NCBI GenBank assembly: GCA_964448705.1
Contig: CAYUZS010000001.1
Location: 45,601-109,600, forward strand
Source: an uncultured Gammaproteobacteria bacterium
GTDB lineage: Bacteria; Patescibacteriota; Microgenomatia; UBA12405
Direction of reading: 5' to 3'
Length of the DNA: 64,000 bases
Shown: in pieces, positions 18,744 through 44,407 of the stretch
How the letters are laid out: every line of letters starts with the position of its first letter
Position numbering within the stretch: the first letter of the stretch is position 1
The notes under the pieces: generated by a model
Seen by the model: only the letters and a program-made list of their open reading frames with translations
Database searches by the model: none
Told to the model about the DNA's origin: nothing
Made by a program: the position numbers and the translations under genes

Positions 18744-18825
18744 CGGATGGATTTATGATATCACAGCTAAATAAAATTAGGAAGAGAATTCAATAGACAA
18801 AACTTTGAACAGTTATAATAGTAAT

Positions 18826-20019: not shown

Positions 20020-20713
20020 CCATATAGTTTGAAACTTCAAGTAGACTGTCGAAAGTACCCGCATCTTCCCAAAGTCCATTGAAAGTGTTGACTTTAAGAT
20101 TACCTGCCTGAAGATAAACATTGATTAAATCGGTAATTTCGAGTTCTCCCCTGGCTGAAGGTTTTAAATTTGAAGCATATTCAACCACTTTATTATCACA
20201 AACATAGAAACCGACTACGGCATAATTACTTTTGGGTTGAGTAGGTTTTTCTTCCAGAGAAACAACCTTTCGGTTAGCATCGAATTCAACCACGCCAAAG
20301 CGTTGGGGATCAGCAACTTCCTTGGCAAAAACCATGGCTCCGGATTCAAAATTACTGATTTCGGTGGAAAAATCCTGGTCAAAAATATTGTCCCCTAAAA
20401 TCATAGCCACAGAATCGGTGCCGATGAAATTTTTTCCAACAATAAAGGCATCCGGGAGACCTTTTGGTTCTTTCTGAACGGCATAACTGAAATGAGCATT
20501 AAAATCGGAACCATCACCTAAAAGATTTAGAAATTGTCCGGAATAATCGGGAGCAATGATAATTAAGATGTCTTTTATCCCGGCCTTGAGCAGGGTTTGG
20601 ATAGGATAATAGATCATCGGTTGATCGTAAATCGGCAGCAGTTGTTTACTGGTAACTAAGGTCAGAGGTCGAAGACGGGTGGCCCGGCCACCGGCAAGAA
20701 TAATTCCTTTCAT
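20003..20713 (-). CDS. rfbA: Glucose-1-phosphate thymidylyltransferase
   Basis: The N-terminus MKGIILAGGRATRLRPLT is the RmlA signature. The protein is 236 aa. The start has an ATGA overlap with rfbD. Confidence 0.9.
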   Translation of the reverse strand: MKGIILAGGRATRLRPLTLVTSKQLLPIYDQPMIYYPIQTLLKAGIKDILIIIAPDYSGQFLNLLGDGSDFNAHFSYAVQKEPKGLPDAFIVGKNFIGTDSVAMILGDNIFDQDFSTEISNFESGAMVFAKEVADPQRFGVVEFDANRKVVSLEEKPTQPKSNYAVVGFYVCDNKVVEYASNLKPSARGELEITDLINVYLQAGNLKVNTFNGLWEDAGTFDSLLEVSNYMAKKKA

Positions 20714-21585
20714 AATGATTGTTTAATAAATTGTAAACCTTCTTTTAGAGTTTTCGGACGAATACCAAATTCCGAAATCACTTTTTCATTAGACAGAGCT
20801 AAGTTGGGAGCGTACGGCCGAGCTTCAGGAGTCTTTAGATATTCAGCCAAAGATGAGGGTTGAACCAGGTCACTATTTAAATCAAAAACTTCAGCGATGG
20901 TTTTAGCCATATCGTAAGCAGACTGCGAAGATGAGCCAACCAAATGATAAATACCGGATTTTTCTTTACTGATCATCGTGCCAAGAACCAGGGCAATATC
21001 GTCAATGAAGGTCGGAGTGGTGAACTGATCATTAAACATGGTAACGGTTTGGTTATCAGCAAGTTTGGATATAATTTTGCGGACTATATCAATTTTGGCA
21101 GGAAAGTTTTGACGGTAAGGAAAAGCGATTCTGACAATAGCGGCATTTACGGAGGCAGCAATTTTTTCGGCTTCGAATTTAGTCTGACCATACCAATCCA
21201 AAGGATGGGGAGAATCCGTCTCGACATAACTACCCGTCTTTTGGCCGTCAAGAACAGAATCGGTGGAAATATGGATTAGATGTTTATCATGTTTTTGGCA
21301 AAGATCAGCAATATTTTTAGTACCAACAACATTGAGTTGATAACACAAGCCGGTTTTGTCGCCCCGTTGAGCCCAAGCGGCATTAGTATCGGTAAAAGCG
21401 GCAAAATGGATAACAACTTTGGCGGGACTGTTTTTAAAGATACTATCTAAAGAATCGGGCTTTAAAATGTCATAACCAGTATCAAGGGAAAGATCGGTGA
21501 ATTGATATTGAGGATTCAGTTCGACAACCCGGGAACCAACCAAGCCGGAAAGACCAGTGCCAATGATTTCTTTGGAAGAACTCAT
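20710..21585 (-). CDS. rfbD: dTDP-4-dehydrorhamnose reductase
   Basis: It has an SDR-like glycine motif GTGLSGLVGSRV and an RmlD-like length. The start ATG at 21585 forms an ATGA overlap with the rfbC stop; the ORF-track start was a TTG. Confidence 0.8.
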   Translation of the reverse strand: MSSSKEIIGTGLSGLVGSRVVELNPQYQFTDLSLDTGYDILKPDSLDSIFKNSPAKVVIHFAAFTDTNAAWAQRGDKTGLCYQLNVVGTKNIADLCQKHDKHLIHISTDSVLDGQKTGSYVETDSPHPLDWYGQTKFEAEKIAASVNAAIVRIAFPYRQNFPAKIDIVRKIISKLADNQTVTMFNDQFTTPTFIDDIALVLGTMISKEKSGIYHLVGSSSQSAYDMAKTIAEVFDLNSDLVQPSSLAEYLKTPEARPYAPNLALSNEKVISEFGIRPKTLKEGLQFIKQSL

Positions 21586-22214
21586 AATTTTTGATTCCAA
21601 TCAATTTTTTCCAGGTCAGAGCGAATTGATGAAAAAATAGGTAAAGCCAAATCTTTTTCTGACAATTCCAACGTTTGGTGAATATCCAAATTCCAATCAA
21701 TATTTAATTCCGGATCATTCCAGAAAATTCCTTTTGAAGCCGGCCCATTGTATAAGTTGTCGCATTTATAGGCAAAGATGGCTTTATCGGAAAGCACCTT
21801 AAAACCGTGGGCAAATCCGGAGGGAATGAAAAACTGATTGTTTTTTTCAGCAGTTAAAATTTCTTTTTCATATTTACCAAAAGTCGGAGAATCAGGACGA
21901 ATATCCAAGGCAACATCGAGAACTTCTCCGGAAATAACCCGGACCAATTTGGCTTGAGCATACGGAGGCAGTTGAAAATGTAAACCTCTGACTACATTTC
22001 CGGTGGAATAAGATTGATTATCTTGAACAAATTTATTGGTTATACCCGCTTTTTCAAAGATTTCCTGACTGTAGGATTCGAAAAAATATCCCCGATTATC
22101 TCCCCAAATTTTGGGTTGAATTCTATAGATTCCCCGTATTAAAGGCGATTCTACAAATTGAACATTGTTAACGGTTATCTCGACCGGAGTATATGCCGAA
22201 TCTTCTTTGTTCAT
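21582..22214 (-). CDS. rfbC: dTDP-4-dehydrorhamnose 3,5-epimerase
   Basis: It has a cupin fold with RmlC motifs (RGLHFQ....QAKLVRV..G...DV.VD.R..SPTFGK). Confidence 0.9.
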   Translation of the reverse strand: MNKEDSAYTPVEITVNNVQFVESPLIRGIYRIQPKIWGDNRGYFFESYSQEIFEKAGITNKFVQDNQSYSTGNVVRGLHFQLPPYAQAKLVRVISGEVLDVALDIRPDSPTFGKYEKEILTAEKNNQFFIPSGFAHGFKVLSDKAIFAYKCDNLYNGPASKGIFWNDPELNIDWNLDIHQTLELSEKDLALPIFSSIRSDLEKIDWNQKL

Positions 22215-23230
22215 GATTTTATATTTTGATAATTGTTAAGTTTTTTATAAAATTCTTCGGCTTCTACTTTTGACTGCCGCCACCAGGATTCACGGCTTAA
22301 ATACCATTCGATTGTTTTTTTAAGTCCGGATTCCAAAGTTTCTTTCGGCTCCCAACCAAGTTCGGTATGAATTTTATTCCAACTGACAGCATAATTATCG
22401 TGTGCCGGCCGGTCAACAACATACTCGATCATGTCCTCCGATTTACCCATGAAAGAAATAACTTTTTTGATGATATCAACGTTTCGACAAGTTTCCTTTA
22501 GTCCGCCGACACAATAGGTTTCACCTAATTTGCCTTTATTTATGACAGTTTCGATGGCAGAACAATGATCGTCGACATACAGCCAATCGCGAAAATTTTC
22601 ACCCTTGCCATAAACGGGAATTTTTTTACCATCAATCAGATTAGTTATCATTCTGGGAATTAATTTCTCCGGATGTTGGAAGGGACCGTAATTATTGGAA
22701 CAGTTAGTGATGGTAACCGGGAGTCCGTATGTTTTACCAAAAGAACGGACAAAATGATCTGATGAGGCTTTTGAGGAAGCATAGGGTGAAGAAGGATCGT
22801 AAGGAGTGGATTCGGAAAATTCAGCTGATGAACCGAAAGGGATAGAACCAAAAACCTCGTCGGTAGAAATGTGATGAAAGCGGATGTTTCCATTTCTTTT
22901 TGCAGCCGATAAAAGAGTGTAAGTACCTAAAACATTGGTCTTAACGAACAATAAAGGATCATCGATGGAGCGATCGACATGAGATTCTGCGGCAAAATGA
23001 ACGATTAAATCAGTTCCGGGGATAATTTTATCGAGCAATTCGGAATTTAAAATGTCGCCTTCGACAAAGGTATAACGGGAATCATCTTTAAAATCGAGGA
23101 GATTTGACTGATTGGCAGCATAGGTGAGTTTATCCAAATTGGTGATTTGGTCGTCCGGATGATGCTGAAACCAAAAACGGATAAAATTTGAACCGATAAA
23201 ACCTGAGCCACCGGTGATCAGTATTTTCAT
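22211..23230 (-). CDS. rfbB: dTDP-glucose 4,6-dehydratase
   Basis: The N-terminus MKILITGGSGFIGSNF and the catalytic YxxxK (YASSKAS) identify it as an RmlB-type extended SDR. Confidence 0.92.
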   Translation of the reverse strand: MKILITGGSGFIGSNFIRFWFQHHPDDQITNLDKLTYAANQSNLLDFKDDSRYTFVEGDILNSELLDKIIPGTDLIVHFAAESHVDRSIDDPLLFVKTNVLGTYTLLSAAKRNGNIRFHHISTDEVFGSIPFGSSAEFSESTPYDPSSPYASSKASSDHFVRSFGKTYGLPVTITNCSNNYGPFQHPEKLIPRMITNLIDGKKIPVYGKGENFRDWLYVDDHCSAIETVINKGKLGETYCVGGLKETCRNVDIIKKVISFMGKSEDMIEYVVDRPAHDNYAVSWNKIHTELGWEPKETLESGLKKTIEWYLSRESWWRQSKVEAEEFYKKLNNYQNIKS

Positions 23231-23236
23231 TTTTAT

Positions 23237-24589
23237 TTATTTTGTTGGGGTAGGGATTTTTTCGGTACTTAATTCAGCACCAATTATAAAGACGACATCA
23301 TATGTGGCACTGTCTTTAAGATCGGCAGTAATTTCAGCATTGGAAAAATCTAATATTTTGTCTTTAAAATAGGCAGATTCAGAACTAAGGCTGGCCTTGG
23401 TTTGAATCGAATTGGCAGTAGCAGATTCTTTGCTGTTGCCGACAGCGACACTGGTGAAACCTAAAGCGGTAAGTTTTTCTTTAAGAACAGCCGCTTGTCC
23501 ATTAATATCGGTACCATTTAGAACCTGAATCTTTAGTTTTTTGCTAATTTCAGCGACAGTCGGAACAGGGGTATTGGTGGGCATTTCGACAATGGAGGTG
23601 GGAGAGACAGAGTCACTTACCGGGGTTTCAATATTGGTATTAGTAGAATCTTTGGTAAGGACATACCAAATAATTCCTGAAGCGATCAAAGCAGTGACCA
23701 CAAAGACAATGATAAAGGGCAGTATATTATGACTTTTTTCCATTTTTCTAGTTGATGAATTGCTATCTACAGACTGGCTTATTATAGCAGGTACAGCGTT
23801 TGAGGAAATAATCAAACCTATAACCGGAAGAGGCAAATTAGCAGCTTTTTTAAATTCCTGAGCGATTAAGGCCGGAGAATACGGAGTTTTATCCAGAGAA
23901 CTGGTGGCATTAATTTCTAAATCATGTTCGGCGGGGATATAGAACTTGGTAGTTAGAGTGGGAAAATATAAGTTTGAGTAGTTAACTATTTTTTGGACAT
24001 CCAGCTCGGAACCTTTTAAATTAGCAGTTAAATAAACCGAATCTTTTTTGGATAAGGAAAGAGTATATTCCCCTTTGGCCAAAGGATAGATTAAAAAGTA
24101 TTCTCCATCAAAACGAAGAGAAATAACTTTAGAGATGGCCTGAGAAACCGATTCAAAAGCGAAAGATTTAAGTTTTAAGAGATCAAGATTGGCCTTAAGA
24201 GCCTCAATTTTTGACTTGTCAAAAAGGTGAGAAAGAATTATGGTTTTGCCGGAAGTAGGGATAAGTTTGAAGTCCATAAAATCCGGGTGGATTTTAAAAT
24301 GGACAGCACTCTGGGCCAAACCGATAACTTCGGCTTTTTCAATAGAAGTAATTTCGGAATCGTAGATAAATGATTTGGTGATGACAACATCATCCGGGAT
24401 GAGGATGGTGCATTCGTCAACTTTATTTTGACTAAGAAGAAGAACCAGAGATTGAATTTCGACATCTGAACAAGGTTTCCAAAGATTTATATCAACGGAA
24501 AAGGTATTGTTCTCCGTTTTGTCCAGATAGAGGTCGGTGACATCTGATTTCGGCCACAAAACGGCTTTTGGTTTGGAAAAGAGTGACAT
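23237..24589 (-). CDS. Membrane protein with an N-terminal cytoplasmic domain (PilM/FtsA-like is a tentative assignment), one TM helix and a C-terminal LytR_C (LytR cell-envelope-related attenuator) domain
   Basis: The TM helix is ILPFIIVFVVTALIASGIIWYVL. The C-terminus KIQVLNGTDINGQAAVLKEKLTALGFTSV.VGN.......SIQTK........D.....VVFIIGAE fits the LytR_C pattern. The start is at MSLFSK (cat at 24587-24589). It is tightly packed between rpsG (12 nt gap) and rfbB (6 nt gap). Confidence 0.55.
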   Translation of the reverse strand: MSLFSKPKAVLWPKSDVTDLYLDKTENNTFSVDINLWKPCSDVEIQSLVLLLSQNKVDECTILIPDDVVITKSFIYDSEITSIEKAEVIGLAQSAVHFKIHPDFMDFKLIPTSGKTIILSHLFDKSKIEALKANLDLLKLKSFAFESVSQAISKVISLRFDGEYFLIYPLAKGEYTLSLSKKDSVYLTANLKGSELDVQKIVNYSNLYFPTLTTKFYIPAEHDLEINATSSLDKTPYSPALIAQEFKKAANLPLPVIGLIISSNAVPAIISQSVDSNSSTRKMEKSHNILPFIIVFVVTALIASGIIWYVLTKDSTNTNIETPVSDSVSPTSIVEMPTNTPVPTVAEISKKLKIQVLNGTDINGQAAVLKEKLTALGFTSVAVGNSKESATANSIQTKASLSSESAYFKDKILDFSNAEITADLKDSATYDVVFIIGAELSTEKIPTPTK

Positions 24590-24619
24590 TGAATAATGGT
24601 AGCACAAAAGGTTTTATGA

Positions 24620-33289: not shown

Positions 33290-34444
33290 TTAGAGAATTT
33301 TGAAGGTGGAAAGAATTTGCTGAAGTTTTTCTTCTTCAGAGGTAGGATACGTGATTGAATACAAGATTGAATTTTTTTCGTTTTGTAAACCTATATATTT
33401 ATTTGGCAACTGAAATAGAGACCAGGATATGCCATTAATGTTTTTCTTTCCAGTTGAAACCGTGTCGTTCATATATTTTGGTTGATTAATAGGATAATTG
33501 GATGAAGCACTTATATCAAAAGCAGCGTTTGATGTTTTGTTAAAAATTAACTGAACATAATTAGCGGTATCAACATTGTTTATTTCCATACTTAGGTCCG
33601 ATGGATATTGAACGGAAAATTTATATTCATCACTGGTATATGTTTTCAAATCTTTTAGACTGGCGGAGGAAGAAGAAGTGGATTCACAGGCTTTTTCGGT
33701 ACAAGAAATAGTTAAGTCGGGAGTGCAGGTGCAGGTATTACAGCCATCAGCGGCAGCAAAAGCCTCATTGACCTGATATGTTTGGTCGTTTAGCTGACAG
33801 ACATTTCCCGGAGCAGCTGTTGGTGAGGTATCGGAAACTTTAGGAACAGAAGTTGAAGGATTAGAAGTGCCGCCTGGATTACTAAGAAAAACAGTATAGA
33901 CAATGGCACCGCAAACAGTGAGGAAAATAAATAAAGCGACAAAAAATAAATATTTAAAAATATTACTTTGGCGAGGAACCTCCTGTTGAGAATCAAAAAC
34001 AGGGGCGGGAGGAAGATTACTGTTTTCCGGTTGAGGAGTTGGAGGGAGATCATCATTTTCCGGTTGTGGAGTTAACGGAAGATCGTTGGTTTTCGGTTGA
34101 GGAATGGGAGGGAGTTCGTAGCTTTCTGCCTGAGGAACGGAAGAAAGAGGCTCTTCAGAAACCGGTTCCGGTGGATTTGGAACTTCGGTTAAAGCAATAT
34201 CGTCAGGAACAGAGGTCATTAAAGTATCTTCGGTTTCAGCGGCAGGAATAACAGCCGGATCTTCAGGAGCATCGATAGGTTTTGGGGATGAATTGTCAAC
34301 AGATTCAGGAGGCACCTGTGGAGTTTTAGAGGCTAGTTCTTGTGAATAATGATCTAATATATCCTGATATTGTTTGGCTAAATCTACATCCTGAGAAGGC
34401 TGAGTAGAATTTTGATCTTTAACATCCATATATAAATATCGCAT
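33290..34444 (-). CDS. Type-II membrane protein, paralog family member 2. It has an acidic/Pro-rich cytoplasmic N-terminal region with LPxTPQPEN repeats, a TM helix, a Cys-rich module and a conserved C-terminal domain ending QILSTFKIL.
   Basis: The TM helix is IFKYLFFVALFIFLTVCGAIVYTVFL. The Cys cluster is CQLND....CNTCTCTPDLTISCTEKAC. The C-terminus KTYTSDEYKFSVQYPS...LQQILSTFKIL aligns with the other two paralogs. An alternative start at MDVKDQ (34429) is possible. Confidence 0.6.
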   Translation of the reverse strand: MRYLYMDVKDQNSTQPSQDVDLAKQYQDILDHYSQELASKTPQVPPESVDNSSPKPIDAPEDPAVIPAAETEDTLMTSVPDDIALTEVPNPPEPVSEEPLSSVPQAESYELPPIPQPKTNDLPLTPQPENDDLPPTPQPENSNLPPAPVFDSQQEVPRQSNIFKYLFFVALFIFLTVCGAIVYTVFLSNPGGTSNPSTSVPKVSDTSPTAAPGNVCQLNDQTYQVNEAFAAADGCNTCTCTPDLTISCTEKACESTSSSSASLKDLKTYTSDEYKFSVQYPSDLSMEINNVDTANYVQLIFNKTSNAAFDISASSNYPINQPKYMNDTVSTGKKNINGISWSLFQLPNKYIGLQNEKNSILYSITYPTSEEEKLQQILSTFKIL

Positions 34445-34470: not shown

Positions 34471-35538
34471 ATGATTAACCATAAAATGAAAACTAAAAAA
34501 GTCTATATTAAAACTTTCGGCTGTGCCCAAAATACGGCTGATTCCGAGAGGATCAAAGCTTACTACTGGGAAAAAGGAGCGGATTTTGTCGATAATTGGA
34601 AAAAAGCTGATGAAGTAGTAATTAACAGCTGTGTAATCAGAGAATCGGCAGAAAATCGGGTATATGGATTGATTAACAATATTAAGACTTTAAGACCAAA
34701 AACAAAAGTGGTTTTAACCGGATGTTTGGCGGGAATAGCAAAAAAGAAAATTGACGGAGTGGATGAACAAAAAAATATCAATGATTTTTTAACCTGGGAA
34801 CCGATTCGAAACAAGAAAGGAGCGGCGTTGGTATCGATCAGCACCGGCTGTAATAATATGTGTTCATTCTGTATCGTCCCCTTTTCCAGAGGCAGAGAAA
34901 TTTCCCGACCAATGGAAAAAATATTAGAAGAAGTTGATAAAGCCATTAAAATCGGTTTCAAAGATGTGGTATTAATAGGACAAAACGTGAATAGCTACGG
35001 CAGTGATTTTGGCGGCGAGTCGTGGGTACATTTGGGTAAAAAGAGAATCAAAAGCCAATTTCCAAAACTACTGGAAGAAGTAGCTAAAAGGGAATTGAAG
35101 GATATTTCTTTTGTTTCCAGTAACCCATGGGATTTCTCCGATGAACTAATTGAAGTGATTGCCAAATATAAAAATATCAACCGACTGCTGCATCTTCCGT
35201 TTCAGTCTGGAGATGATGAAGTGTTGAAAAGAATGAACCGCAGTTATACCCAACAAGAATATCTGGATTTGGTTAATAAAATCAAAAATGAAGTTGAAGG
35301 AGTCAGATTTTCAACAGATATTATTATTGGTTTTCCGGGAGAAAACGAAAAGGCTTTTGAAAACACAGTCGATGTTTGCAAAAAAGTAGGTTTTGAAATT
35401 GCTTATATTAATAAATATTCACCCAGAAGAGGAACGGTGTCGGCCAAGATTTTTGAAAACGATATTCCACAAAGTGAAAAGAAAAGAAGATGGAAAATTC
35501 TGGATGAACTGGTAAACCACAAATTAGCTGCGAATTAA
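34471..35538 (+). CDS. Radical SAM methylthiotransferase of the MiaB/RimO family (tRNA or ribosomal protein S12 methylthiolation), with a short C-terminus
   Basis: It has an MTTase N domain (VYIKTFGCAQN..DSE) and a radical SAM CNNMCSFC (CxxxCxxC) motif. At 355 aa it is shorter than canonical MiaB, so the TRAM domain is reduced. GGAG lies 11 nt upstream of ATG 34471. Confidence 0.75.
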   Translation: MINHKMKTKKVYIKTFGCAQNTADSERIKAYYWEKGADFVDNWKKADEVVINSCVIRESAENRVYGLINNIKTLRPKTKVVLTGCLAGIAKKKIDGVDEQKNINDFLTWEPIRNKKGAALVSISTGCNNMCSFCIVPFSRGREISRPMEKILEEVDKAIKIGFKDVVLIGQNVNSYGSDFGGESWVHLGKKRIKSQFPKLLEEVAKRELKDISFVSSNPWDFSDELIEVIAKYKNINRLLHLPFQSGDDEVLKRMNRSYTQQEYLDLVNKIKNEVEGVRFSTDIIIGFPGENEKAFENTVDVCKKVGFEIAYINKYSPRRGTVSAKIFENDIPQSEKKRRWKILDELVNHKLAAN

Positions 35539-36390: not shown

Positions 36391-37311
36391 TTATCTTAAA
36401 TACTTGGCAATATTGGCATTGTGCCCATCAAGAGTGGAGGAATAATACATTTTTCCGTCATTACCCGTAATATAGTAGAGATAATCGTTGTCAGCGGGAT
36501 GATAGGCAGCATAAAGGGAATCGTATCCGGGATTGCAGATAGGACCGGGAGGAAGGCCGGGGTGAAGATAAGTATTATACAGAGAATTTATGGAAAGATC
36601 GGGTTTACTTAATGGTGTCCAAAATTCTTTAGTGGATAATTTGCTGTCCCGGGCATACTGAACAGTGGCATCGATTTGCAGAGCCATATCAATAGAAAGA
36701 CGATTCAAGATAATACCGGCAATTTGCTGCTTTGACTGCAAACTCCGACCTTCACGCTCTAAAAGAGAAGCTAAAGTAACAATTTCTTTTAACGACAGCT
36801 GATTGTTAGTAGGATTAATTTGGGCGGCTGCAAGCTGGTTGTCGAAATTCTTTTTAATTATTTCTGAATAAATACGCTCCGGCTGATAATCGGCAGGCAC
36901 CAGATAGCTATCGGGGAAAACATAACCTTCAAGTGCTTCGTCAAATTTAACGGTTAGCTCGTCTAAACGCTGACCTTCAATAATTTTTAACCAATAATCA
37001 TTGTTGCCCTTAGAGATAAGTTTGGAAATAATTTCCGGAGTGGTGAGAGAAGGTTTTAGTTCAAAAGTACCCGCCTGAAGCCGACCGTTCAGACCGGAAA
37101 AATAAAGGTAAGTCAAAAAGACATATCGATTTCGAATAAGACCATTGTTTTCCAGTTGACGGGAAATAATTTTAGAACTGTCGCCCTGGTTAACAACAAA
37201 CACTTTAGTGGATGTATCCGAAGAAAACGCACTAAGTTCGTAAATATAAAATACAAAAGAAACTAAAATTAAAACAAACGGAATAAGAAGAAATAAAAAC
37301 AGTTTTCTCAT
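36391..37311 (-). CDS. mltG: Endolytic murein transglycosylase MltG (YceG family)
   Basis: It has an N-terminal TM anchor, the YceG-like motif NTYLHPGLPPGPICNPG, and a conserved catalytic Glu region (LASLLEREG). Confidence 0.88.
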   Translation of the reverse strand: MRKLFLFLLIPFVLILVSFVFYIYELSAFSSDTSTKVFVVNQGDSSKIISRQLENNGLIRNRYVFLTYLYFSGLNGRLQAGTFELKPSLTTPEIISKLISKGNNDYWLKIIEGQRLDELTVKFDEALEGYVFPDSYLVPADYQPERIYSEIIKKNFDNQLAAAQINPTNNQLSLKEIVTLASLLEREGRSLQSKQQIAGIILNRLSIDMALQIDATVQYARDSKLSTKEFWTPLSKPDLSINSLYNTYLHPGLPPGPICNPGYDSLYAAYHPADNDYLYYITGNDGKMYYSSTLDGHNANIAKYLR

Positions 37312-37508
37312 TAGATTTCATCAAACAGAGCGCGGCGATAAGAGTTTTTCTTTGTATCATGAACAAATATCCGACCGCAGCGGCAAGTTACCAAATCCAA
37401 ACCTTTGTTTTGACTTTTTTTACCATGTGTAAGGGAATCTCCGCAACCGACGCAACGCTCCTGAGACAACAACCACGATTGAATTGGAGAAATTAAATTT
37501 TTGAACAT
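37311..37508 (-). CDS. Small zinc-ribbon protein (CxxC ... CxC), 65 aa
   Basis: The sequence reads CVGCGDSLTHG....LVTCRCGRIF. It sits between ruvX and mltG, with a 1 nt overlap with the mltG start. Confidence 0.4.
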   Translation of the reverse strand: MFKNLISPIQSWLLSQERCVGCGDSLTHGKKSQNKGLDLVTCRCGRIFVHDTKKNSYRRALFDEI

Positions 37509-37518
37509 TTTTTTCTTT

Positions 37519-37902
37519 TTAATAATTAGTAACCCGCCGAAGGATAACAGCAGCGGAAACAGAATCTACCATTTTTTTATAATCTTTTTTCTTACCCTGA
37601 TTTTGTTGGTAGATTTCGGTAGCTTCAATGGTGGAGACAGCCTCTTCAACGGTCTCAACAGGTAATTTTATCATGTTCTGAAGACCAGCCACAAACTTTA
37701 GAGTTTGAAGTGCAAAATCACCTTCGGATAGACCAACGTATATTTTGGATATTGAATATTGCGTAATAATCCGAGAAAGATTGTCGATTAAGCGGTCGTC
37801 ATTTTTGAGAGCCGGCAAGGTAGAAATTACACCGGATACTGAATAAGCCAAACCGACATTTTTAGTGCCGTAATCAATGGCTAAAAGATTTAAATTATTC
37901 AT
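37519..37902 (-). CDS. ruvX: Putative pre-16S rRNA nuclease / Holliday junction resolvase-like YqgF/RuvX
   Basis: LLAIDYGTKNVGLAYS is the RNase H-like YqgF N-terminal motif. The protein is 127 aa. Confidence 0.85.
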   Translation of the reverse strand: MNNLNLLAIDYGTKNVGLAYSVSGVISTLPALKNDDRLIDNLSRIITQYSISKIYVGLSEGDFALQTLKFVAGLQNMIKLPVETVEEAVSTIEATEIYQQNQGKKKDYKKMVDSVSAAVILRRVTNY

Positions 37903-38632
37903 TAATATCAGCGATACGACTTTTAATTACTAAACGACGAAGAAAGGTTCCGGGAGGACTGCAGGTGATCAAACTAAAATAACGTCCATCATAACGCTGC
38001 TCCAGAACTGAGAGGTCGGTTGGCTGGACCTCGAACATTTCTTCGACTAAATATTTATAGCGAATATTATCATAATCAATATAAATCTCATCACCGGTTT
38101 TTAAACGGTAAAGAGTGGAAAAAATTGTTAAGTAAGATTTGGGATTATAAAACTGGGGCAAAACCGAATGTCCAAAAACAATACCGTTACCGGGTTGGCC
38201 GGGAAGAGCAGTATTGGGATATTGAATTAAACTTTTTTTAAGATCCATGCTGCCAACTTCAACGACGGCATCTTCAATTTTCAAAACCGGAATAGAAAGA
38301 CGATAAGAGGAGGTCGGATTGTTGGAAAGAACGGAGGCAGCCGAAGAATCCGAGTGGTTATCGGCTACAAACCAGTTATTTAATTGAGTATAGTCAGTGG
38401 AAGATAAATCACCCAAAATACTACCGGTGTGATTATAAAATTTTGAAGATAATGGGTTTAATATTTGACCAAACTTAGTTGAATATTCCAACTGAAACTG
38501 GACAATAGGTAAAAGGGCTGAAGAAATAAAGAACAAACTTACGGCAAAAAGAGCACCGGCTAAAATTTTCTTGCGACGAGGTGACGGCTTTTTGGGAGCA
38601 GTCTTGATTTCTTTTATGTAGATATAACCCAC
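37895..38632 (-). CDS. Sortase family transpeptidase (class E-like)
   Basis: It has an N-terminal TM anchor. The catalytic triad context is present: His (IVFGHS), the TLxTC motif (SLITCSPPG) and Arg (RRLVIKS). Confidence 0.8.
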   Translation of the reverse strand: MGYIYIKEIKTAPKKPSPRRKKILAGALFAVSLFFISSALLPIVQFQLEYSTKFGQILNPLSSKFYNHTGSILGDLSSTDYTQLNNWFVADNHSDSSAASVLSNNPTSSYRLSIPVLKIEDAVVEVGSMDLKKSLIQYPNTALPGQPGNGIVFGHSVLPQFYNPKSYLTIFSTLYRLKTGDEIYIDYDNIRYKYLVEEMFEVQPTDLSVLEQRYDGRYFSLITCSPPGTFLRRLVIKSRIADINE

Positions 38633-40759
38633 TTATTTAACCTCAACAGTAATATTGGAATGTAAAAAAGGCAGAGGATTTACTGCCCGGAGAAAACGAA
38701 AATTAGTTTCGATTTCAAAATTATATACCCTGGGATAATTTGTTTTAATAAGATTCTGAGCAGTTTTAATATTTTTCCCGGAAAGAAGTTTAACCACATC
38801 CGACTGGTCGAATTTGGGCAACGAAGTACCTTTAATCGATAAGGTTCCGGAAACTATCCCGGAGGACTGAGTGACTGAAGAAAGTGAAAGCTCAAAGTTG
38901 TCGGGGTTTAAAATTATTTCATTGAAACCCGGTTCCGACGAGAGCAAGGCGGTTAACATTTGACTTTTTTGATCGTGATTAAGGTAATAAACAGTAACAG
39001 TGCTGGTGGCGGTAGCCGAGAGTTGATCGGCTTCTTCCCCTACCTCACGACTATAAGTTAGACGACTTTTTTTGACCTGGGTTGAATTTTTTATTAAGCC
39101 GTTGACACTGTTGGCCTGGGAAAGTTTGTCATTAACTGCCTGATCGATAGCCATAGTCATTTGAGATTCCAAAGCAGTTTTATCGGCACTGCTGACAGCT
39201 TTAATTTGGCTTTTACTACCACCACTGATGGCACCACTGACTTTAGCTACCAAAATCGTTTCGGCAAAATCTTTAAAATGCAATTGAGTGTCGGCCGGTA
39301 AATTATATTCGGGACCAATGTCGGTGGCAGAGACAATGACTTTGGTCTGACCTAAAGTAATGACTCCGGCCTGTAAATCGGAACTGCTGGAGGCAATTTG
39401 GACCGAAGAACCGAGTTCGTATTTATTACCTTTACTGTCGATTAAAATAGTACCTGAGGAGAGATTTTGAACTTTATCCTGTTTATTAAAAATCACCACT
39501 TCACCTTTTGATTTATCACCGACAGTTTTTTCACCGGTAGTTGGCACAAAAGCACTGGTGCCGATATCAAAAGTCTGCTGACTAACAGGAATTACTTTTT
39601 TAGCCGGGTCATAAGCGGAGGCCGACGGATCTAAAGTTACAGAAATTTGTTTATCGAAATTATAGGGGGTAAAAGATAAAGTAACCTTGGCTTTTGACAA
39701 GAAAAAGGGAATTAAAATCAATAAAGGCAGAACTACCAGCGGGGCAATTAAAATATTAAAGGCCGGCAGGCGGAGAACAGGTAATTTAAATTTAAATTTA
39801 TTTTTTTTGGCAGACGGTGGCGGTGAAGCAACCGGCGGTTCAAAATCTGCAACCAGCTCTGCCGGAGGCGGAATCAACGGATCAAAAGAGGAAAAAACAA
39901 AATTATCGGTGTCAACTATTTCTGTGGTTTCGGGAACAGAAAAACCCAATTCGGAGGCAGAAACTTCATCCAAATTTGATTCAACCATTTCTGATTCTGT
40001 CGGCACCACCTCCTGACTCAAAACAGGATTTGCTGTCTGCGGGGAAAACTGCGAGGTGATCGCCCGGGTATAAATTTGGGCGACTTCCAAAGGAGAATAA
40101 GTTTTAATATCCGGAAAATGGAGAAAAGTTTCGACATCTTTTTTACCTATCCATGGGTAATTTTTTATCGAATCAACAACATTTTCGCCGACGTCGCCAA
40201 AAATAATAATCTGAGGAGGCAATGTTGATTCGGTGTGAAATTCAGTTAAAACATTTTCGAGCATGATCGGCTCGAAGGGAATATTCAGAGGCTTTAAAAG
40301 CCGTTCGGTAACTTTGCCGAGATAAATCAAAGAGACAGACATTTCGGATAAGGTAAGATTCACCAAGACAAAACTGACAGGAAAACCTTCGGCATGGTTA
40401 AAGTCTTCAACAACAGCTTCATCGTTGGTGATGAAACCCATAGGTTTTAGACCTAAGTCGTGGCAAAGAAATTCCACCAGTTTTAAATATTCACCGGAAA
40501 TTTTTCCATCAGAACCGATCCATAAAGGAGGTAAAATCAGAGCCGCAGAATCCGGTTCCTGATCTTCCGGCAGACTGATGGATTCGGCGGCAAAATTCAA
40601 AGATTTATCGGCGGCGGTATTTAGAGATTCTCTTTCGACGACAAAATCCTCCCTGGAACCGACAGCAGAAACAACATAAGACTCGTCAACATAATTGACC
40701 AGGGAAACCGTCACTGTTGAAGGGTGAAGATCAACCAGCCAAAATGATTTGTTATCCAT
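38633..40759 (-). CDS. Large membrane protein of 708 aa. It has an N-terminal cytoplasmic domain (PilM/FtsA actin-like fold is a tentative assignment), a Pro-rich linker, one TM helix and a ~370 aa extracellular Ser/Thr-rich domain.
   Basis: The N-terminus MDNKSFWLVDLHPSTVTVSLV..... resembles the start of PilM/FtsA-like proteins. The TM helix is LIAPLVVLPLLILIPFFL. Its architecture parallels the 456 aa LytR_C protein at 23237-24589. It lies directly upstream of the sortase. Confidence 0.5.
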   Translation of the reverse strand: MDNKSFWLVDLHPSTVTVSLVNYVDESYVVSAVGSREDFVVERESLNTAADKSLNFAAESISLPEDQEPDSAALILPPLWIGSDGKISGEYLKLVEFLCHDLGLKPMGFITNDEAVVEDFNHAEGFPVSFVLVNLTLSEMSVSLIYLGKVTERLLKPLNIPFEPIMLENVLTEFHTESTLPPQIIIFGDVGENVVDSIKNYPWIGKKDVETFLHFPDIKTYSPLEVAQIYTRAITSQFSPQTANPVLSQEVVPTESEMVESNLDEVSASELGFSVPETTEIVDTDNFVFSSFDPLIPPPAELVADFEPPVASPPPSAKKNKFKFKLPVLRLPAFNILIAPLVVLPLLILIPFFLSKAKVTLSFTPYNFDKQISVTLDPSASAYDPAKKVIPVSQQTFDIGTSAFVPTTGEKTVGDKSKGEVVIFNKQDKVQNLSSGTILIDSKGNKYELGSSVQIASSSSDLQAGVITLGQTKVIVSATDIGPEYNLPADTQLHFKDFAETILVAKVSGAISGGSKSQIKAVSSADKTALESQMTMAIDQAVNDKLSQANSVNGLIKNSTQVKKSRLTYSREVGEEADQLSATATSTVTVYYLNHDQKSQMLTALLSSEPGFNEIILNPDNFELSLSSVTQSSGIVSGTLSIKGTSLPKFDQSDVVKLLSGKNIKTAQNLIKTNYPRVYNFEIETNFRFLRAVNPLPFLHSNITVEVK

Positions 40760-40966: not shown

Positions 40967-42733
40967 TTAAGACAAGCCGGCGTAGATACGACGTTTGCCC
41001 GAACCGGCAGACTCTTCTTTGGTAATTTTGAAATTTCCTAAAACTCCGGTATTTTTAACATGAGGGCCGGTGCAGACTTCACGGGAAAAATAGTTTTTAT
41101 CGTCGCCGACAGTGTACATCGTCACTACTTTAGGATATTTGGCGCCAAAAAAAGCCAAGGCACCGGAATTTACAGCTTCTTCAAAAGGAAGTGTCTTCAC
41201 CGAAACCGGCAAGTTTAACTTTATTTGTTGATTTACCAAATCTTGAACTTGCTGCAACTGACTATCGGTTAATTTGTCGGGAAACGAGAAATCAAAACGA
41301 AGACGTTCTGAAGTAATGTTGGAACCCGACTGCTGGACATTGGGACCAAGAATTTTTCGCAGAGAAGCATGAAGCAGATGAGTGGCAGTGTGATATTTGG
41401 TGATAATTTCGGAATGGTCGGCAAGACCGGATTTAAATTTACCGGCGGAAAGGGTTTGTGATTGTTGTTGATGCTCTGATTTGTATTTATTAAATTCATC
41501 GACATCCAGCGATAGATTATTTTTCCGTAATTCTTCCTCGACCATTTCAACCGGAAAACCAAAACTTTGATAAAGATCAAAAGCCTCTTTACCGGAAACG
41601 GATTTTTGCCGGTCAATTAATTTTTGGATTTCTCTTAATCCATTGTTTAACGTTTTGCGGAATTTTATTTCTTCAAGATCAATAATTTCAATGATTTTAT
41701 CTTTATTCTGACTTAACTCGGGATAAACACCGCCATAATTTTCCTGATTACCAATAACTGATAAAGCAACTTCTTTAGTAAAGTTGTTTTCCAAACCGAG
41801 CAGTTTACCCTGACGAATCGAGCGACGGATAAGACGACGAAGAACATAACCGGCTTCTTTATTTGACGGCTCAATTCCGTCTGCAATCATGAAAACTGCG
41901 GCTTTAATATGGTCGGCGATAATCCGAAAAGGTTTCGGACTATCCATGTATTTTTTACCCGATATTTCCTCGATTTTTTGGATAATTGGCTGCCAGATAT
42001 CGGTTAGATAATTATCCGATAAACCGGATAAAACAGCAGTGGTCCGTTCAACTCCCATACCGGTGTCGACATTCATTTGAACTAAGGGTTCATATTTTCC
42101 GTCAGCGGTTTTGTTGTACTGCATAAAAACGTCATTCCATATTTCCAACCAACGATTATCATCCGGATCAAATTTAAGAGGAGCATCGCCCTCTTCTTTC
42201 CAAAAAAACATTTCGGTATCAGGACCACAAGGACCGACGGTTCCAGCCGGACCCCACCAGTTGTTTTTCTTTGGAAGATAGGCAATTCTATCGGGAGAAA
42301 TCCCCTGAGACTGCCAAAACTCAGCACTTTCTTTGTCTCTGGGAGCATCACTGTCCCCTTCAAAACAAGTAACAGCTAATTTGTCTTTTGGCAATTTTAA
42401 AACCTTAGTGAGAAACTCAAAAGAAAATGAGATCATCTCTTTTTTAAAATAATCACCCAAAGACCAGTTGCCAAGCATTTCAAAAAAGGTGTGATGATAA
42501 GTGTCCCCGACTTCATCAATATCTCCGGTGCGGATGCATTTTTGAACGTCAGTAAGCCGTTTACCAAGAGGATGGGGTTGACCTAAAAGAAAAGGCACCA
42601 GAGGATGCATACCGGCAGAAATAAAAAGAGTCGTCGGATCATTTTCGGGAACGATTGAAGCACTGGGAATTTCGACATGACCTTTAGAGACAAAAAACTC
42701 AACATATTTATTTTTTAGTTCTCTGGCATTCAT
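40967..42733 (-). CDS. alaS: Alanine--tRNA ligase, compact form of 589 aa
   Basis: The start is at MNARELKNKYVEFFVSKGH (cat at 42731-42733). It has class II motifs, an editing domain HxxxH (HTATHLLH) and a C-terminal Cys/His (CTGPHV). It is much shorter than the 875 aa E. coli enzyme. Confidence 0.9.
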   Translation of the reverse strand: MNARELKNKYVEFFVSKGHVEIPSASIVPENDPTTLFISAGMHPLVPFLLGQPHPLGKRLTDVQKCIRTGDIDEVGDTYHHTFFEMLGNWSLGDYFKKEMISFSFEFLTKVLKLPKDKLAVTCFEGDSDAPRDKESAEFWQSQGISPDRIAYLPKKNNWWGPAGTVGPCGPDTEMFFWKEEGDAPLKFDPDDNRWLEIWNDVFMQYNKTADGKYEPLVQMNVDTGMGVERTTAVLSGLSDNYLTDIWQPIIQKIEEISGKKYMDSPKPFRIIADHIKAAVFMIADGIEPSNKEAGYVLRRLIRRSIRQGKLLGLENNFTKEVALSVIGNQENYGGVYPELSQNKDKIIEIIDLEEIKFRKTLNNGLREIQKLIDRQKSVSGKEAFDLYQSFGFPVEMVEEELRKNNLSLDVDEFNKYKSEHQQQSQTLSAGKFKSGLADHSEIITKYHTATHLLHASLRKILGPNVQQSGSNITSERLRFDFSFPDKLTDSQLQQVQDLVNQQIKLNLPVSVKTLPFEEAVNSGALAFFGAKYPKVVTMYTVGDDKNYFSREVCTGPHVKNTGVLGNFKITKEESAGSGKRRIYAGLS

Positions 42734-42934
42734 AGAGGAAATTATATCAAAAATAAGATAAAATACCCGGCAATGACTGAAAATTATTGTCAGGAACATG
42801 AATGCAGCGAATGCTGTATCGGTATGATTCATAGAAGAATCAAAGTGTCTGAGGCCAGCCATTTGGCGGGTGAAGAACCGCGGGTATATTTTTCAAAACG
42901 TAATCAATTCGAACAATCAACCAATGGAGTAATA

Positions 42935-43780: not shown

Positions 43781-44407
43781 CTAATTTTCTGAATTTTCAT
43801 TCAAGAGGTAAGTTCTTTGTTCAGTTTTTACTTTACCACTGGGAGATTTTGATTCAACTACAATAGTAGAAGAACCGGAACCAGGAAGAGTTATTTTTTT
43901 TTCAAAGGAACCGTCGGCATTAACAATAATCAAATCACTGTTGATACGAATTGTTGAGTCGGGATCGGTGATACCAGTTAAATCAAAAGTAGGCTGAACA
44001 AGAGTTTCCGTTGTCGGCCAGTTAACTTTAAGGTCGGGAGGGTGATTAAACTTGACGTATTCCATGACTAAATATGAAGCAAAGACTATTATGGAAAAAA
44101 AGACAGCGATCTTGAAGGTAAACTGAGGGGTAAAAAACCACCTTTTAGAATCTGAAGTTTTACTTTTAGTGACATTGGCAAAATCACGACGAAACAGAGA
44201 AAGGACATCATCACTATTTAAACCCAAAAAATTGGCATAATCTTTGATTATTAACGAACAATAGGGTTCTTCCGGAAATTGGGATCTATTTTCCGACTCG
44301 ATAGCTTCGATATATTTGGCAGATATCTTGAGTTTTTTACAAACCTCATTGATTTCCAAATCCCGATCTTCACGGGCATTTTTAAGTATAACGGAGGCTC
44401 TGAACAT
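43781..44407 (-). CDS. rodZ: RodZ-like cytoskeleton-associated protein (N-terminal HTH, TM helix, extracellular domain)
   Basis: It has an XRE-type HTH (LKNAREDRDLEINEVCKKLKISAKYIEAIE), then a TM helix (IAVFFSIIVFASYLV) and a C-terminal periplasmic domain. It lies directly downstream of ftsK. Confidence 0.6.
   Translation of the reverse strand: MFRASVILKNAREDRDLEINEVCKKLKISAKYIEAIESENRSQFPEEPYCSLIIKDYANFLGLNSDDVLSLFRRDFANVTKSKTSDSKRWFFTPQFTFKIAVFFSIIVFASYLVMEYVKFNHPPDLKVNWPTTETLVQPTFDLTGITDPDSTIRINSDLIIVNADGSFEKKITLPGSGSSTIVVESKSPSGKVKTEQRTYLLNENSEN

What the first reader, a model, noticed from the sequence alone, without database searches (positions are those of the whole stretch)
38633..40759. 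Two paralogous-architecture proteins (708 aa and 456 aa) share an N-terminal cytoplasmic PilM/FtsA-like domain, a TM helix and a different ectodomain; one is adjacent to a sortase
The 708 aa protein (38633-40759) and the 456 aa protein (23237-24589) both begin with a ~270-290 aa soluble domain. Its start resembles actin-like PilM/FtsA N-termini (hydrophobic beta-strand, D/h-h-D, then VVS/VGS). Each then has one TM helix and a large extracellular part: Ser/Thr-rich in the 708 aa protein, LytR_C in the 456 aa one. A cytoplasmic actin-like module fused through a TM helix to a cell-surface domain is not a standard annotated architecture. It suggests a transmembrane coupling device linking a cytoplasmic ATPase or scaffold to envelope assembly; one partner would be sortase and cell-wall anchoring, the other rhamnose-polymer attachment. 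No pilin-like genes are nearby, so a classical PilMNO role is unlikely.
Basis: inference. Interest (0 to 1): 0.65.

Follow-up and report, generated by a model that had tools for sequence, protein, structure and literature searches.

The report
Actin-fold membrane scaffolds; one sortase-coupled
Two housekeeping membrane proteins of a Microgenomates (CPR) bacterium each carry a degenerate PilM/FtsA-like actin-fold domain in the cytoplasm, joined by one membrane helix to an outside domain; one of them is an unannotated family always encoded directly in front of a sortase, which points to an undescribed envelope-assembly pair.

Summary
Both ORFs are real and lie on the minus strand: protein A is 708 aa, protein B is 450 aa from its conserved ATG. 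Each has a soluble N-domain, one TM helix and an ectodomain.

The two N-domains share no significant sequence similarity, and neither keeps the nucleotide-binding Asp/Gly motifs. They are probably scaffolds, not ATPases.

B carries PilN-type ΦNLLP-like motifs before its TM, so it looks like a PilM-PilN fusion (GspL-like) ending in LytR_C.

A has no Pfam or NCBIfam family. Its ectodomain contains a ~105 aa baseplate-J/wedge-like module. A sortase gene follows it directly in 72 of 72 species loci with enough downstream sequence, inside a conserved alaS-A-sortase-ruvX-mltG cluster.

The bitopic actin-fold architecture is already known from GspL, PilMN and BfpC. The sortase coupling and the ectodomain appear new. 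Function is inferred, not shown.

The parts
38633..40759 (-). Gene A: 708 aa bitopic membrane protein with no Pfam or NCBIfam family
   Evidence: ORF. No Pfam or NCBIfam hit. 161 close homologues, all unnamed or 'hypothetical protein', from Shapirobacteria and Microgenomates. The exhaustive profile search found 1642 representatives at E<=1e-30.
40040..40759 (-). A residues 1-240: minimal actin-like (ASKHA) domain, two beta-beta-beta-alpha-beta-alpha-beta-alpha halves, no 1C or 2B insert and no nucleotide motifs
39785..40039 (-). A residues 241-325: acidic, Pro-rich, length-variable linker ending in a basic juxtamembrane stretch
   Evidence: Indel-rich alignment columns. Composition 17.6% D+E and 14% P.
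39941..39973 (-). A residues 263-273: conserved short motif L-x-E-V-x-x-x-(D/E)-L-G-F inside the linker
   Evidence: In 115 sequences: L263 97, E265 108, G272 114, F273 115. G272 and F273 are still >=90% conserved in the 93-sequence alignment that reaches 22-30% identity.
39695..39763 (-). A residues ~333-355: single TM helix
   Evidence: Best 19-aa Kyte-Doolittle window scores 2.93 at residue 336. Four K/R and no D/E in the 15 residues before it.
38636..39694 (-). A residues 356-708: conserved ectodomain
   Evidence: Invariant G409, G414, G419, G482, N486, G514 and D526 across 93 diverse members.
39206..39526 (-). A residues ~412-518: baseplate-J / baseplate-wedge-like module
   Evidence: PF04865 hits in 11/30 members, best 4.1e-7 (30 bits against a cut-off of 21.1). 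They always match profile positions ~19-113 of 255. phrog_6 'baseplate wedge subunit' 5.7e-8 on the same stretch. PDB 8v3w_E 'TRI-2 (CD1371)' E 0.013. Mapping to the window protein. The window protein itself scores below reporting thresholds.
37895..38632 (-). Sortase gene abutting A, probably translationally coupled (inference)
   Evidence: PF04203 E 4.8e-20. TIGR01076 50.3 bits against a cut-off of 39.35, but below every class-specific cut-off. A's TAA is followed at once by GTG, with GAGG 8 nt upstream. The translation contains 'FGHS', 'LITC' and 'RRL', read here as the catalytic His, Cys and Arg.
23237..24589 (-). Gene B: 450 aa PilM/GspL-like bitopic protein ending in LytR_C
   Evidence: ORF. 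277 homologues, named 'LytR C-terminal domain-containing protein' where named at all.
23840..24589 (-). B residues 1-250: PilM/GspL-type actin-like domain with a 1C-like insert (~69-123)
23816..23839 (-). B residues 251-258: invariant N-L-P-L-P-V-L-G motif
   Evidence: N251 120/120, P253 120/120, P255 119/120. This stretch has pLDDT 96-97 in the model.
23717..23743 (-). B residues 283-291: M-E-N-K-K-N-I-L-P, a PilN-N-terminus-like ΦNLLP motif running into the TM
   Evidence: M283 117/120, N288 118/120, L290 116/120, P291 120/120. ΦNLLP is the conserved PilN peptide that binds PilM (bioRxiv 10.1101/2022.09.21.508927).
23657..23725 (-). B residues ~289-311: single TM helix
   Evidence: Kyte-Doolittle score 2.78 at residue 289.
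23279..23536 (-). B residues 352-437: LytR_C domain, preceded by a Ser/Thr/Pro linker
   Evidence: PF13399 E 6.2e-8. Linker is 34% S+T and 13% P.

Best explanation
A and B are two separate bitopic (N-in, C-out) envelope scaffold proteins of a Microgenomates (CPR) bacterium. They follow the GspL / PilM-PilN plan. A nucleotide-free, degenerate actin-fold domain sits in the cytoplasm and probably acts as a docking or oligomerisation surface. One TM helix joins it to an outside domain that acts on the wall side.

A is an unannotated, deeply conserved family. Its ectodomain contains a baseplate-wedge-like beta module. It is made together with a sortase, with stop and start codons abutting. The most likely role is to organise or position that housekeeping sortase, or its substrates, at sites of wall growth. 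Its gene sits in the ftsK - rodZ-like - alaS - A - sortase - ruvX - mltG cluster.

B is in effect a PilM-PilN fusion whose PilN-like outer part is a LytR_C domain. It is expressed from the rpsL-rpsG operon slot, often with the dTDP-rhamnose genes.

Shown here: the folds, the motifs, the topology signals and the synteny. Inferred: lack of ATP binding, physical or functional pairing of A with the sortase, and any role in surface-protein or polymer anchoring.
For: - Degenerate active site: no conserved Asp or Gly at the phosphate-1 or phosphate-2 hairpins, and a single conserved Gly at the adenosine site.
- Topology: one TM helix each, with basic residues on the N-terminal side.
- Precedent for the design: PilM resembles the cytoplasmic domains of GspL and BfpC, and PilM plus PilN is the equivalent of GspL (PMC4471445).
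- B carries ΦNLLP-like motifs.
- A-sortase coupling: 72/72 loci. TAA-GTG junction with an upstream GAGG. The same cluster appears in homologues at 27-45% identity.
[quoted passage not shown] That fits a lineage-wide pair.
- B synteny: rpsG adjacent in 60/66 loci, rml genes within 4 kb in 26/30.
Against: - No experimental data exist for either family.
- Gene adjacency does not prove that A and the sortase interact.
Its baseplate-J similarity covers only ~105 aa, and the window protein itself is below threshold.
- No sortase substrate was found in the 64 kb window.
- Loss of nucleotide binding is inferred from motif positions in a predicted model, not measured. PilM, the closest structural match, does bind ATP (PDB titles).
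Confidence: 0.5

Rival explanations
1. A is a lineage-specific divisome or elongasome anchor. On this view it is an FtsA-like membrane tether, TM-anchored instead of using an amphipathic helix, that links FtsZ, MreB or RodZ in the cytoplasm to wall remodelling outside. The sortase would simply be co-located at the septum.
Against: A lacks the 1C and 2B subdomains. From general knowledge, FtsA uses these to recruit partners and to bind FtsZ. No Pfam FtsA, SHS2_FTSA or MreB hit appears in 30 members. No ftsZ lies in the window or in the conserved neighbourhood. The invariant neighbour is the sortase (72/72), not a division gene.
Confidence: 0.2
2. A and/or B are extra assembly-platform subunits of a type IV pilus, competence or T2SS-like filament machine. 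Their actin-like domain would dock a PilB/GspE-type ATPase, as PilM and GspL do.
Against: No pilin, PilB, PilC or PilD genes were found in the window ORFs that were scanned or in the conserved neighbourhoods. In a closed Microgenomates genome the T4P genes, including PilM, sit together at a single locus (PMC7143001). No PilM_2, PilN or T2SSL Pfam hit was found. The outer domains (baseplate-J-like and LytR_C) are not PilN or GspL domains.
Confidence: 0.15
3. The N-domains are active actin-like ATPases, and ATP turnover drives a transmembrane conformational signal.
For: The ASKHA fold is confirmed. The closest structural relatives, PilM and FtsA, bind nucleotide (PDB titles).
Against: Position 10 in A is Y/S/D/N, with no Gly in the beta1-beta2 loop. 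The phosphate-2 hairpin reads S-F-I-L-x-x-L...L-S-L-V-Y, without Asp or Gly. B has W-P-K and F-L-I-Y-P-L at the equivalent hairpins.
Confidence: 0.07
4. A is a remnant or domesticated piece of a prophage or contractile-injection-system baseplate (Baseplate J).
For: Hits to PF04865, phrog_6 and PDB 8v3w TRI-2 on residues ~412-518.
Against: Only ~95 of the 255 profile positions match. No other phage genes lie nearby. The gene sits in a core housekeeping cluster conserved down to 25-30% identity. It is fused to a TM helix and a cytoplasmic actin fold.
Confidence: 0.03

Closest known systems
GspL (EpsL/PulL) of type II secretion, and its split equivalent PilM + PilN of type IVa pili (also BfpC)
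   Different: No sequence-level membership in PilM_2, PilN or T2SSL. No pilus or secretion genes nearby. The outer domains are LytR_C in B and a baseplate-J-like ectodomain in A, not the ferredoxin-like PilN/GspL domain. A lacks the 1C-like subdomain. The nucleotide motifs seen in ATP-binding PilM are absent.
FtsA (cell-division actin homologue)
   Different: A has no 1C or 2B subdomain and no Pfam FtsA hit. It has a true TM helix plus a 350 aa ectodomain rather than a C-terminal amphipathic helix (general knowledge of FtsA). It is not next to ftsZ.
Baseplate J / baseplate wedge 'triplex' proteins (PF04865, phrog_6; PDB 8v3w TRI-2, CD1371)
   Same: A ~105 aa module shares the motifs A-x-x-I-G-x-E-Y-N-L and F-x-G-G-(T/S).
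   Different: Only part of the profile is matched. The context is a TM-anchored extracellular domain of a housekeeping protein, not a phage or contractile-injection particle.
LytR_C-only envelope proteins such as mycobacterial Cei (NF035953)
   Same: B's TM plus LytR_C part gives a weak hit to Cei (31 bits) and a clear PF13399 hit.
   Different: The Cei score is far below the equivalog cut-off (31 against 150 bits). The Cei model is only 212 positions long and aligns solely to B's TM plus LytR_C part (residues 286-384), so it does not cover B's 260 aa PilM-like domain.

Membership tests
ASKHA (actin-like ATPase) fold superfamily | Two RNase-H-like subdomains, each beta-beta-beta-alpha-beta-alpha-beta-alpha | tested here: met
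ASKHA (actin-like ATPase) fold superfamily | Conserved phosphate-1, phosphate-2 and adenosine nucleotide-binding motifs (DxG..., DxGGG..., GG) | tested here: not met
   Column counts over 115 sequences (A) and 120 sequences (B) show no conserved Asp or Gly at the hairpins. Only G188 in A is invariant. Motif positions were assigned from the predicted strands.
PilM (PF11104) / FtsA (PF14450) / MreB Pfam families | Significant match to the family HMM | tested here: not met
   No such hit at E<=1 for A or B, nor in any of 30 A-family members. No PDB sequence hit for either N-domain profile.
PilM-PilN / GspL assembly-platform proteins | Actin-like cytoplasmic domain with a 1C-type insert, followed by a single TM | tested here: met
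PilM-PilN / GspL assembly-platform proteins | Conserved ΦNLLP peptide N-terminal to the PilN TM | tested here: met
   Met for B: N288-I-L-P291 (118-120 of 120) directly before the TM, plus N251-L-P-L-P; motif definition. A has no equivalent conserved Asn motif.
PilM-PilN / GspL assembly-platform proteins | Genomic association with pilin, PilB, PilC or GspE genes | tested here: not met
   None in the window ORFs scanned or in the conserved neighbourhoods.
PilM-PilN / GspL assembly-platform proteins | Ferredoxin-like PilN/GspL periplasmic domain | not tested
By sequence they are LytR_C (B) and baseplate-J-like (A), with no PilN or GspL_C Pfam hit.
FtsA | 1C and 2B subdomains, C-terminal amphipathic membrane helix, ftsZ neighbourhood | tested here: not met
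   A is a minimal two-lobe core. It has a TM helix and an ectodomain instead of a C-terminal amphipathic helix. No ftsZ in the window or in the syntenic loci.
Baseplate_J (PF04865) | Match to the family HMM above the gathering score | tested here: inconclusive
   The window protein gives no hit. Homologues P0113 (30 bits), P0361 (27.6 bits) and P0345 (21.9 bits) pass the 21.1-bit cut-off, but only over profile positions ~19-113 of 255.
LytR_C (PF13399) | Match above the gathering score | tested here: met
   B residues 352-437, 33.9 bits against 22.2. All 120 listed homologues carry PF13399.
LCP (LytR-CpsA-Psr) glycopolymer transferases | LytR_cpsA_psr catalytic domain | tested here: not met
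   B's only Pfam hit above the curated cut-off is LytR_C. B is therefore not an LCP enzyme.
Sortase (neighbour gene) | Sortase domain with catalytic His, Cys (TLxTC-like) and Arg | tested here: met
   PF04203 at 72 bits. TIGR01076 above its cut-off, while all class-specific models fall below theirs. 'FGHS', 'LITC' and 'RRL' are visible in the translation.

The most novel reading that the evidence does not exclude
A and its abutting, probably co-translated sortase form a previously undescribed, Microgenomates-wide envelope-assembly machine. In this reading a nucleotide-free actin-fold platform is held in place from the cytoplasm, perhaps through the conserved LGF linker motif and the W-x-G-K-K...E-T-F-L-H-F-P loop. 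It presents an oligomerising baseplate-wedge-like ectodomain that positions the sortase and its substrates. That would couple sortase-dependent surface or appendage assembly to cytoplasmic cues, much as GspL and PilMN couple an ATPase to pilus assembly.
Probability: 0.25. Interest if true: 0.75.

Novelty: new variant of a known kind. Interest (0 to 1): 0.5.

Why it matters
CPR/Patescibacteria make up a large share of bacterial diversity, and little about their cell envelope has been tested directly.

Méheust et al. reported that sortase is near-ubiquitous in Microgenomates. They also reported that many Microgenomates-enriched families are hypothetical, and that a good share of these are predicted membrane proteins (PMC6744442).

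This work gives one large unannotated family a fold, a topology and an invariant partner. The family has 1642 representatives at E<=1e-30.

If A does organise sortase activity, it would be the first case of a PilM/GspL-type actin-fold platform used for sortase-dependent surface assembly. It would also give a handle on how these small epibiotic or host-dependent cells build their surface.

B shows the same platform design reused with a LytR_C wall-side domain, in a ribosomal-protein operon slot.

Both proteins are also clear examples of actin-fold pseudo-enzymes.

Tried and rejected
- Pfam and NCBIfam on A: no hit.
- PDB sequence searches with the full-length profile and both N-domain profiles: nothing meaningful. 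Only the broader 93-sequence profile reached TRI-2, at E 0.013.
- Direct A-versus-B comparison. BLASTP found nothing. hhalign with shallow and then deeper profiles gave P 0.03 and 0.011, which is not significant. The aligned stretch (A 89-151, B 125-186) does cover the same helix-strand-helix-hairpin elements in both models.
- Single-member Pfam hits to POTRA_1 (E 0.076) and TubZ_C (E 3e-4) were treated as noise.
- The afdb50 fold library was unavailable.
- A scan of all window ORFs for C-terminal sorting signals found only one spurious ORF.
- A's conserved C-terminal 'NPLPF' is not followed by a hydrophobic tail, so A is not itself a classical sortase substrate.
- Literature searches for sortase + actin-like + CPR, baseplate J + Patescibacteria, and LytR_C + PilM returned nothing relevant.
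- The count of 7657 hits at E<=1e-3 was not used as the family size. Hits that match only the baseplate-J-like module may inflate it.
- Names for distant representatives: none available.
Full report
**What is in the sequence.** Both ORFs are present, on the minus strand.
- Protein A is encoded at 38633-40759 and is 708 aa.
- Protein B is encoded at 23237-24589 and is 450 aa from the ATG that aligns with every homologue ('MSLFSKPK').
- Where homologues carry a name, they place the window in Candidatus Shapirobacteria / Microgenomates (CPR).
- Each protein has one strongly hydrophobic segment: A about residues 333-355, B about 289-311. Basic residues lie on the N-terminal side. That fits a cytoplasmic N-domain and an external C-terminal part, by the positive-inside rule (inference).

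**Sequence-level annotation.**
- A hits nothing in Pfam or NCBIfam. Every named relative is a 'hypothetical protein'.
- B's only Pfam hit above the curated cut-off is LytR_C, at residues 352-437 (33.9 bits against 22.2). It has a sub-threshold NCBIfam hit to the mycobacterial envelope protein Cei over its TM plus LytR_C part.
- The gene after A is a sortase (PF04203, E 4.8e-20). It passes the generic TIGR01076 model but none of the class-specific models. His ('FGHS'), Cys ('LITC') and Arg ('RRL') are visible in its translation.
- A and B show no pairwise similarity by BLASTP.
- Profile-profile comparison of the two N-domains is not significant (P 0.03, and 0.011 with a deeper profile).
- The one stretch that aligns (A 89-151 with B 125-186) covers the same helix-strand-helix-hairpin elements in both predicted structures.

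**Fold of the N-domains.** I cropped both N-domains with 38 and 28 diverse homologues (alignments A5 and A6) and ran AlphaFold2.
- The A model (residues 1-245) has pLDDT 89.1 and pTM 0.86. Its element order is exactly two beta-beta-beta-alpha-beta-alpha-beta-alpha halves, the minimal actin-like (ASKHA) core without inserts.
  - Foldseek independently ranks PilM chains first (E 1.5e-10, TM about 0.63-0.66).
- The B model (residues 1-262) has pLDDT 92.2 and pTM 0.89. It has an extra beta-alpha-beta-beta insert at about 69-123.
- Both domains are therefore actin folds. B belongs specifically with the PilM/GspL/FtsA branch. A is a stripped-down version nearest to FtsA and PilM.

**They are probably not ATPases.** I mapped the canonical phosphate-1, phosphate-2 and adenosine positions onto the predicted strands and counted residues across 115 A-family and 120 B-family sequences.
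- In A, the beta1-beta2 hairpin reads F-W-L-(I/V/A)-(Y/S/D/N)-I-x-x-x.
- In A, the second hairpin reads S-F-I-L-x-(H/N/Y)-L...L-S-L-V-Y-L-G.
- In A, only G188 is invariant at the adenosine site.
- In B, the equivalent positions are W-P-K and F-L-I-Y-P-L...E-Y-T-L.
- No Asp or Gly is conserved where ASKHA enzymes bind phosphate and Mg.

Loss of nucleotide binding is an inference from these motifs. It was not measured.

**B looks like a PilM-PilN fusion.**
- B has an invariant N251-L-P-L-P-V-L-G just after the actin domain. This stretch has pLDDT 96-97 in the model.
- It also has M283-E-N-K-K-N288-I-L-P291 running straight into the TM helix.
- PilN proteins begin with a conserved ΦNLLP peptide that binds a groove in PilM, with the Asn being critical (bioRxiv 10.1101/2022.09.21.508927).
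- The PilM-PilN complex is regarded as the equivalent of GspL, whose cytoplasmic domain, like that of BfpC, has the PilM fold (PMC4471445).
- B is therefore best read as a GspL-like protein whose outer part is a Ser/Thr/Pro linker plus LytR_C, instead of the PilN/GspL ferredoxin-like domain.
- The 'M-E-N-K-K-N-I-L-P + TM' stretch may be the fossil start of a once-separate pilN-like gene. This is speculation.

**Anatomy of A beyond the N-domain.**
- Residues 241-325 form an acidic, Pro-rich linker full of indels.
- One short motif in the linker is conserved: L263-x-E265-V-x-x-x-(D/E)-L-G272-F273. In 115 sequences G is present in 114 and F in 115. Both are still >=90% conserved in a 93-sequence alignment that reaches 22-30% identity.
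- The ectodomain (356-708) is only 21% Ser+Thr. It has invariant Gly, Asn and Asp positions even in that deep alignment. It is a conserved domain rather than a low-complexity Ser/Thr region.
- Residues about 412-518 match the Baseplate_J Pfam model in 11 of 30 members (best 4.1e-7; three homologues pass the gathering score). The match always covers profile positions about 19-113 of 255.
- The same stretch hits phrog_6 'baseplate wedge subunit' (5.7e-8). The deep profile finds 'TRI-2 (CD1371)' (PDB 8v3w) at E 0.013, sharing A-x-x-I-G-x-E-Y-N-L and F-x-G-G-(T/S).
- Only one module is shared, so A is not a baseplate protein.

**Genomic context of A.**
- A's TAA is followed directly by the sortase GTG, with GAGG 8 nt upstream.
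- In 78 species-representative genome loci encoding an A relative, all 72 with at least 600 bp downstream have a same-strand sortase immediately after A. Most projected gaps are -3 to +7 nt.
- The wider order ftsK - RodZ-like HTH_25 protein - small genes (one YtxH-like) - alaS - A - sortase - ruvX - 65 aa - mltG recurs throughout.
- The same cluster is present in homologues only 27-30% identical to the P0339 branch.
- An exhaustive profile search found 1642 representatives (50%-identity clusters) at E<=1e-30. All of the top 150 that are full-length proteins match end to end.
- No pilus, secretion or phage genes were found in the window ORFs that were scanned. They are ribosomal, RNA polymerase, translation-factor, RNase, chaperone and similar genes.
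[quoted passage not shown] A closed Microgenomates genome encodes its type IV pilus genes, including PilM, at one separate locus (PMC7143001).

**Genomic context of B.**
- In the window the order is rpoB-rpoC-rpsL-rpsG-B-rmlB-rmlC-rmlD-rmlA. The same holds in two genomes checked individually.
- Across 80 metagenome loci, rpsG is directly upstream in 60 of 66 informative cases.
- rml genes lie within 4 kb downstream in 26 of 30 cases, but are adjacent in only 12. A few loci go straight on to fusA.
- B is thus fixed in the str-operon slot. The rhamnose link is frequent but looser.
- B has no LCP catalytic domain, so it cannot itself be the glycopolymer ligase.

**Interpretation.** The best-supported reading is that A and B are two independent uses of the GspL / PilM-PilN design. 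In this design a catalytically dead actin-fold platform in the cytoplasm is joined through one TM helix to a wall-side domain.
- For A, the invariant, abutting sortase gene and the wall-growth and division flavour of the cluster make a sortase-organising or sortase-positioning role most likely.
- This step is inference from synteny, which is why overall confidence is 0.5.
- Rivals are an FtsA-like divisome tether (0.2), a pilus-type platform docking a PilB-like ATPase (0.15), a genuine ATPase (0.07) and a phage baseplate remnant (0.03).

- The guess of a PilM/FtsA-like fold was right for both proteins, and the sortase link is much stronger than one adjacency suggested.
- The claim that the architecture is non-standard is overstated, because GspL, PilMN and BfpC share it.
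- The 'ATPase' option is disfavoured.
- 'Rhamnose-polymer attachment' rests only on partial synteny and a LytR_C domain of unknown function.
- 'Paralogous' cannot be shown from sequence.

**Novelty and limits.** I rate this a new variant of a known kind. The platform design is known. Its combination with a baseplate-wedge-like ectodomain and an obligate sortase partner, and with LytR_C in B, appears undescribed in the libraries and literature searched. The limits are:
- The ectodomain of A was not modelled.
- Whole-genome content (ftsA, pilM, sortase substrates) could not be checked.
- No experiment exists for either family.

Noticed in passing
window 37311-37508 (-): A 65 aa ORF with CxxC...CxC spacing (zinc-ribbon-like) lies between ruvX and mltG. 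An ORF of 65-67 aa occupies the same slot in most related loci examined (L001-L005, L087), but not in L086 or L088. It has no Pfam entry on record.
   Followed up: partly
window 43781-44407 (-): RodZ-like protein: HTH_25 domain (E 2.3e-16), a TM segment and a Glucodextran_B-like C-terminal domain. It is conserved directly after ftsK, upstream of alaS-A-sortase, in almost all related loci.
   Followed up: partly
window 33290-34444 (-): A 384 aa protein with weak Pacifastin_I and VWC-like cysteine-rich hits. It recurs between the radical-SAM (UPF0004) gene and rpoB in related genomes (L004, L005). Function unknown.
   Followed up: no
window 1-64000: Gene orientation is extremely one-sided. 46 of the 48 ORFs of at least 150 aa are on the minus strand; only 18805-20019 and 34471-35538 are on plus. 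A published Microgenomates genome was noted for strand composition disparity (PMC7143001).
   Followed up: no
window 18805-24607: The str operon (rpsL-rpsG ... fusA-tuf) is interrupted by B, rmlB/C/D/A and a divergently oriented amine-oxidase-like flavoprotein gene (18805-20019, +). The content of this insertion varies between genomes.
   Followed up: partly
loci L011-L013, L016, L017 and others: Many species-representative MAG records that carry the typical Microgenomates alaS-A-sortase-ruvX-mltG cluster are titled 'uncultured Gammaproteobacteria bacterium' (one 'Bdellovibrionales', two 'Parcubacteria'). The record titles look unreliable as taxonomy.
   Followed up: no
window 40967-42862 (-): The mechanical alaS ORF (631 aa) extends about 43 codons upstream of the 588 aa gene called on identical contigs (L002). 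The alaS here is also short for a bacterial AlaRS.
   Followed up: no
A residues 200-216 (window ~40112-40162, -): A highly conserved loop, N-Y-P-W-(I/V)-G-K-K-x-x-E-T-F-L-H-F-P, in the second lobe of A's actin fold. W203, E210, F212, L213, H214 and P216 are invariant across the close family. The model shows no regular secondary structure there and pLDDT is lower (65-79). It is a candidate partner-binding site.
   Followed up: no
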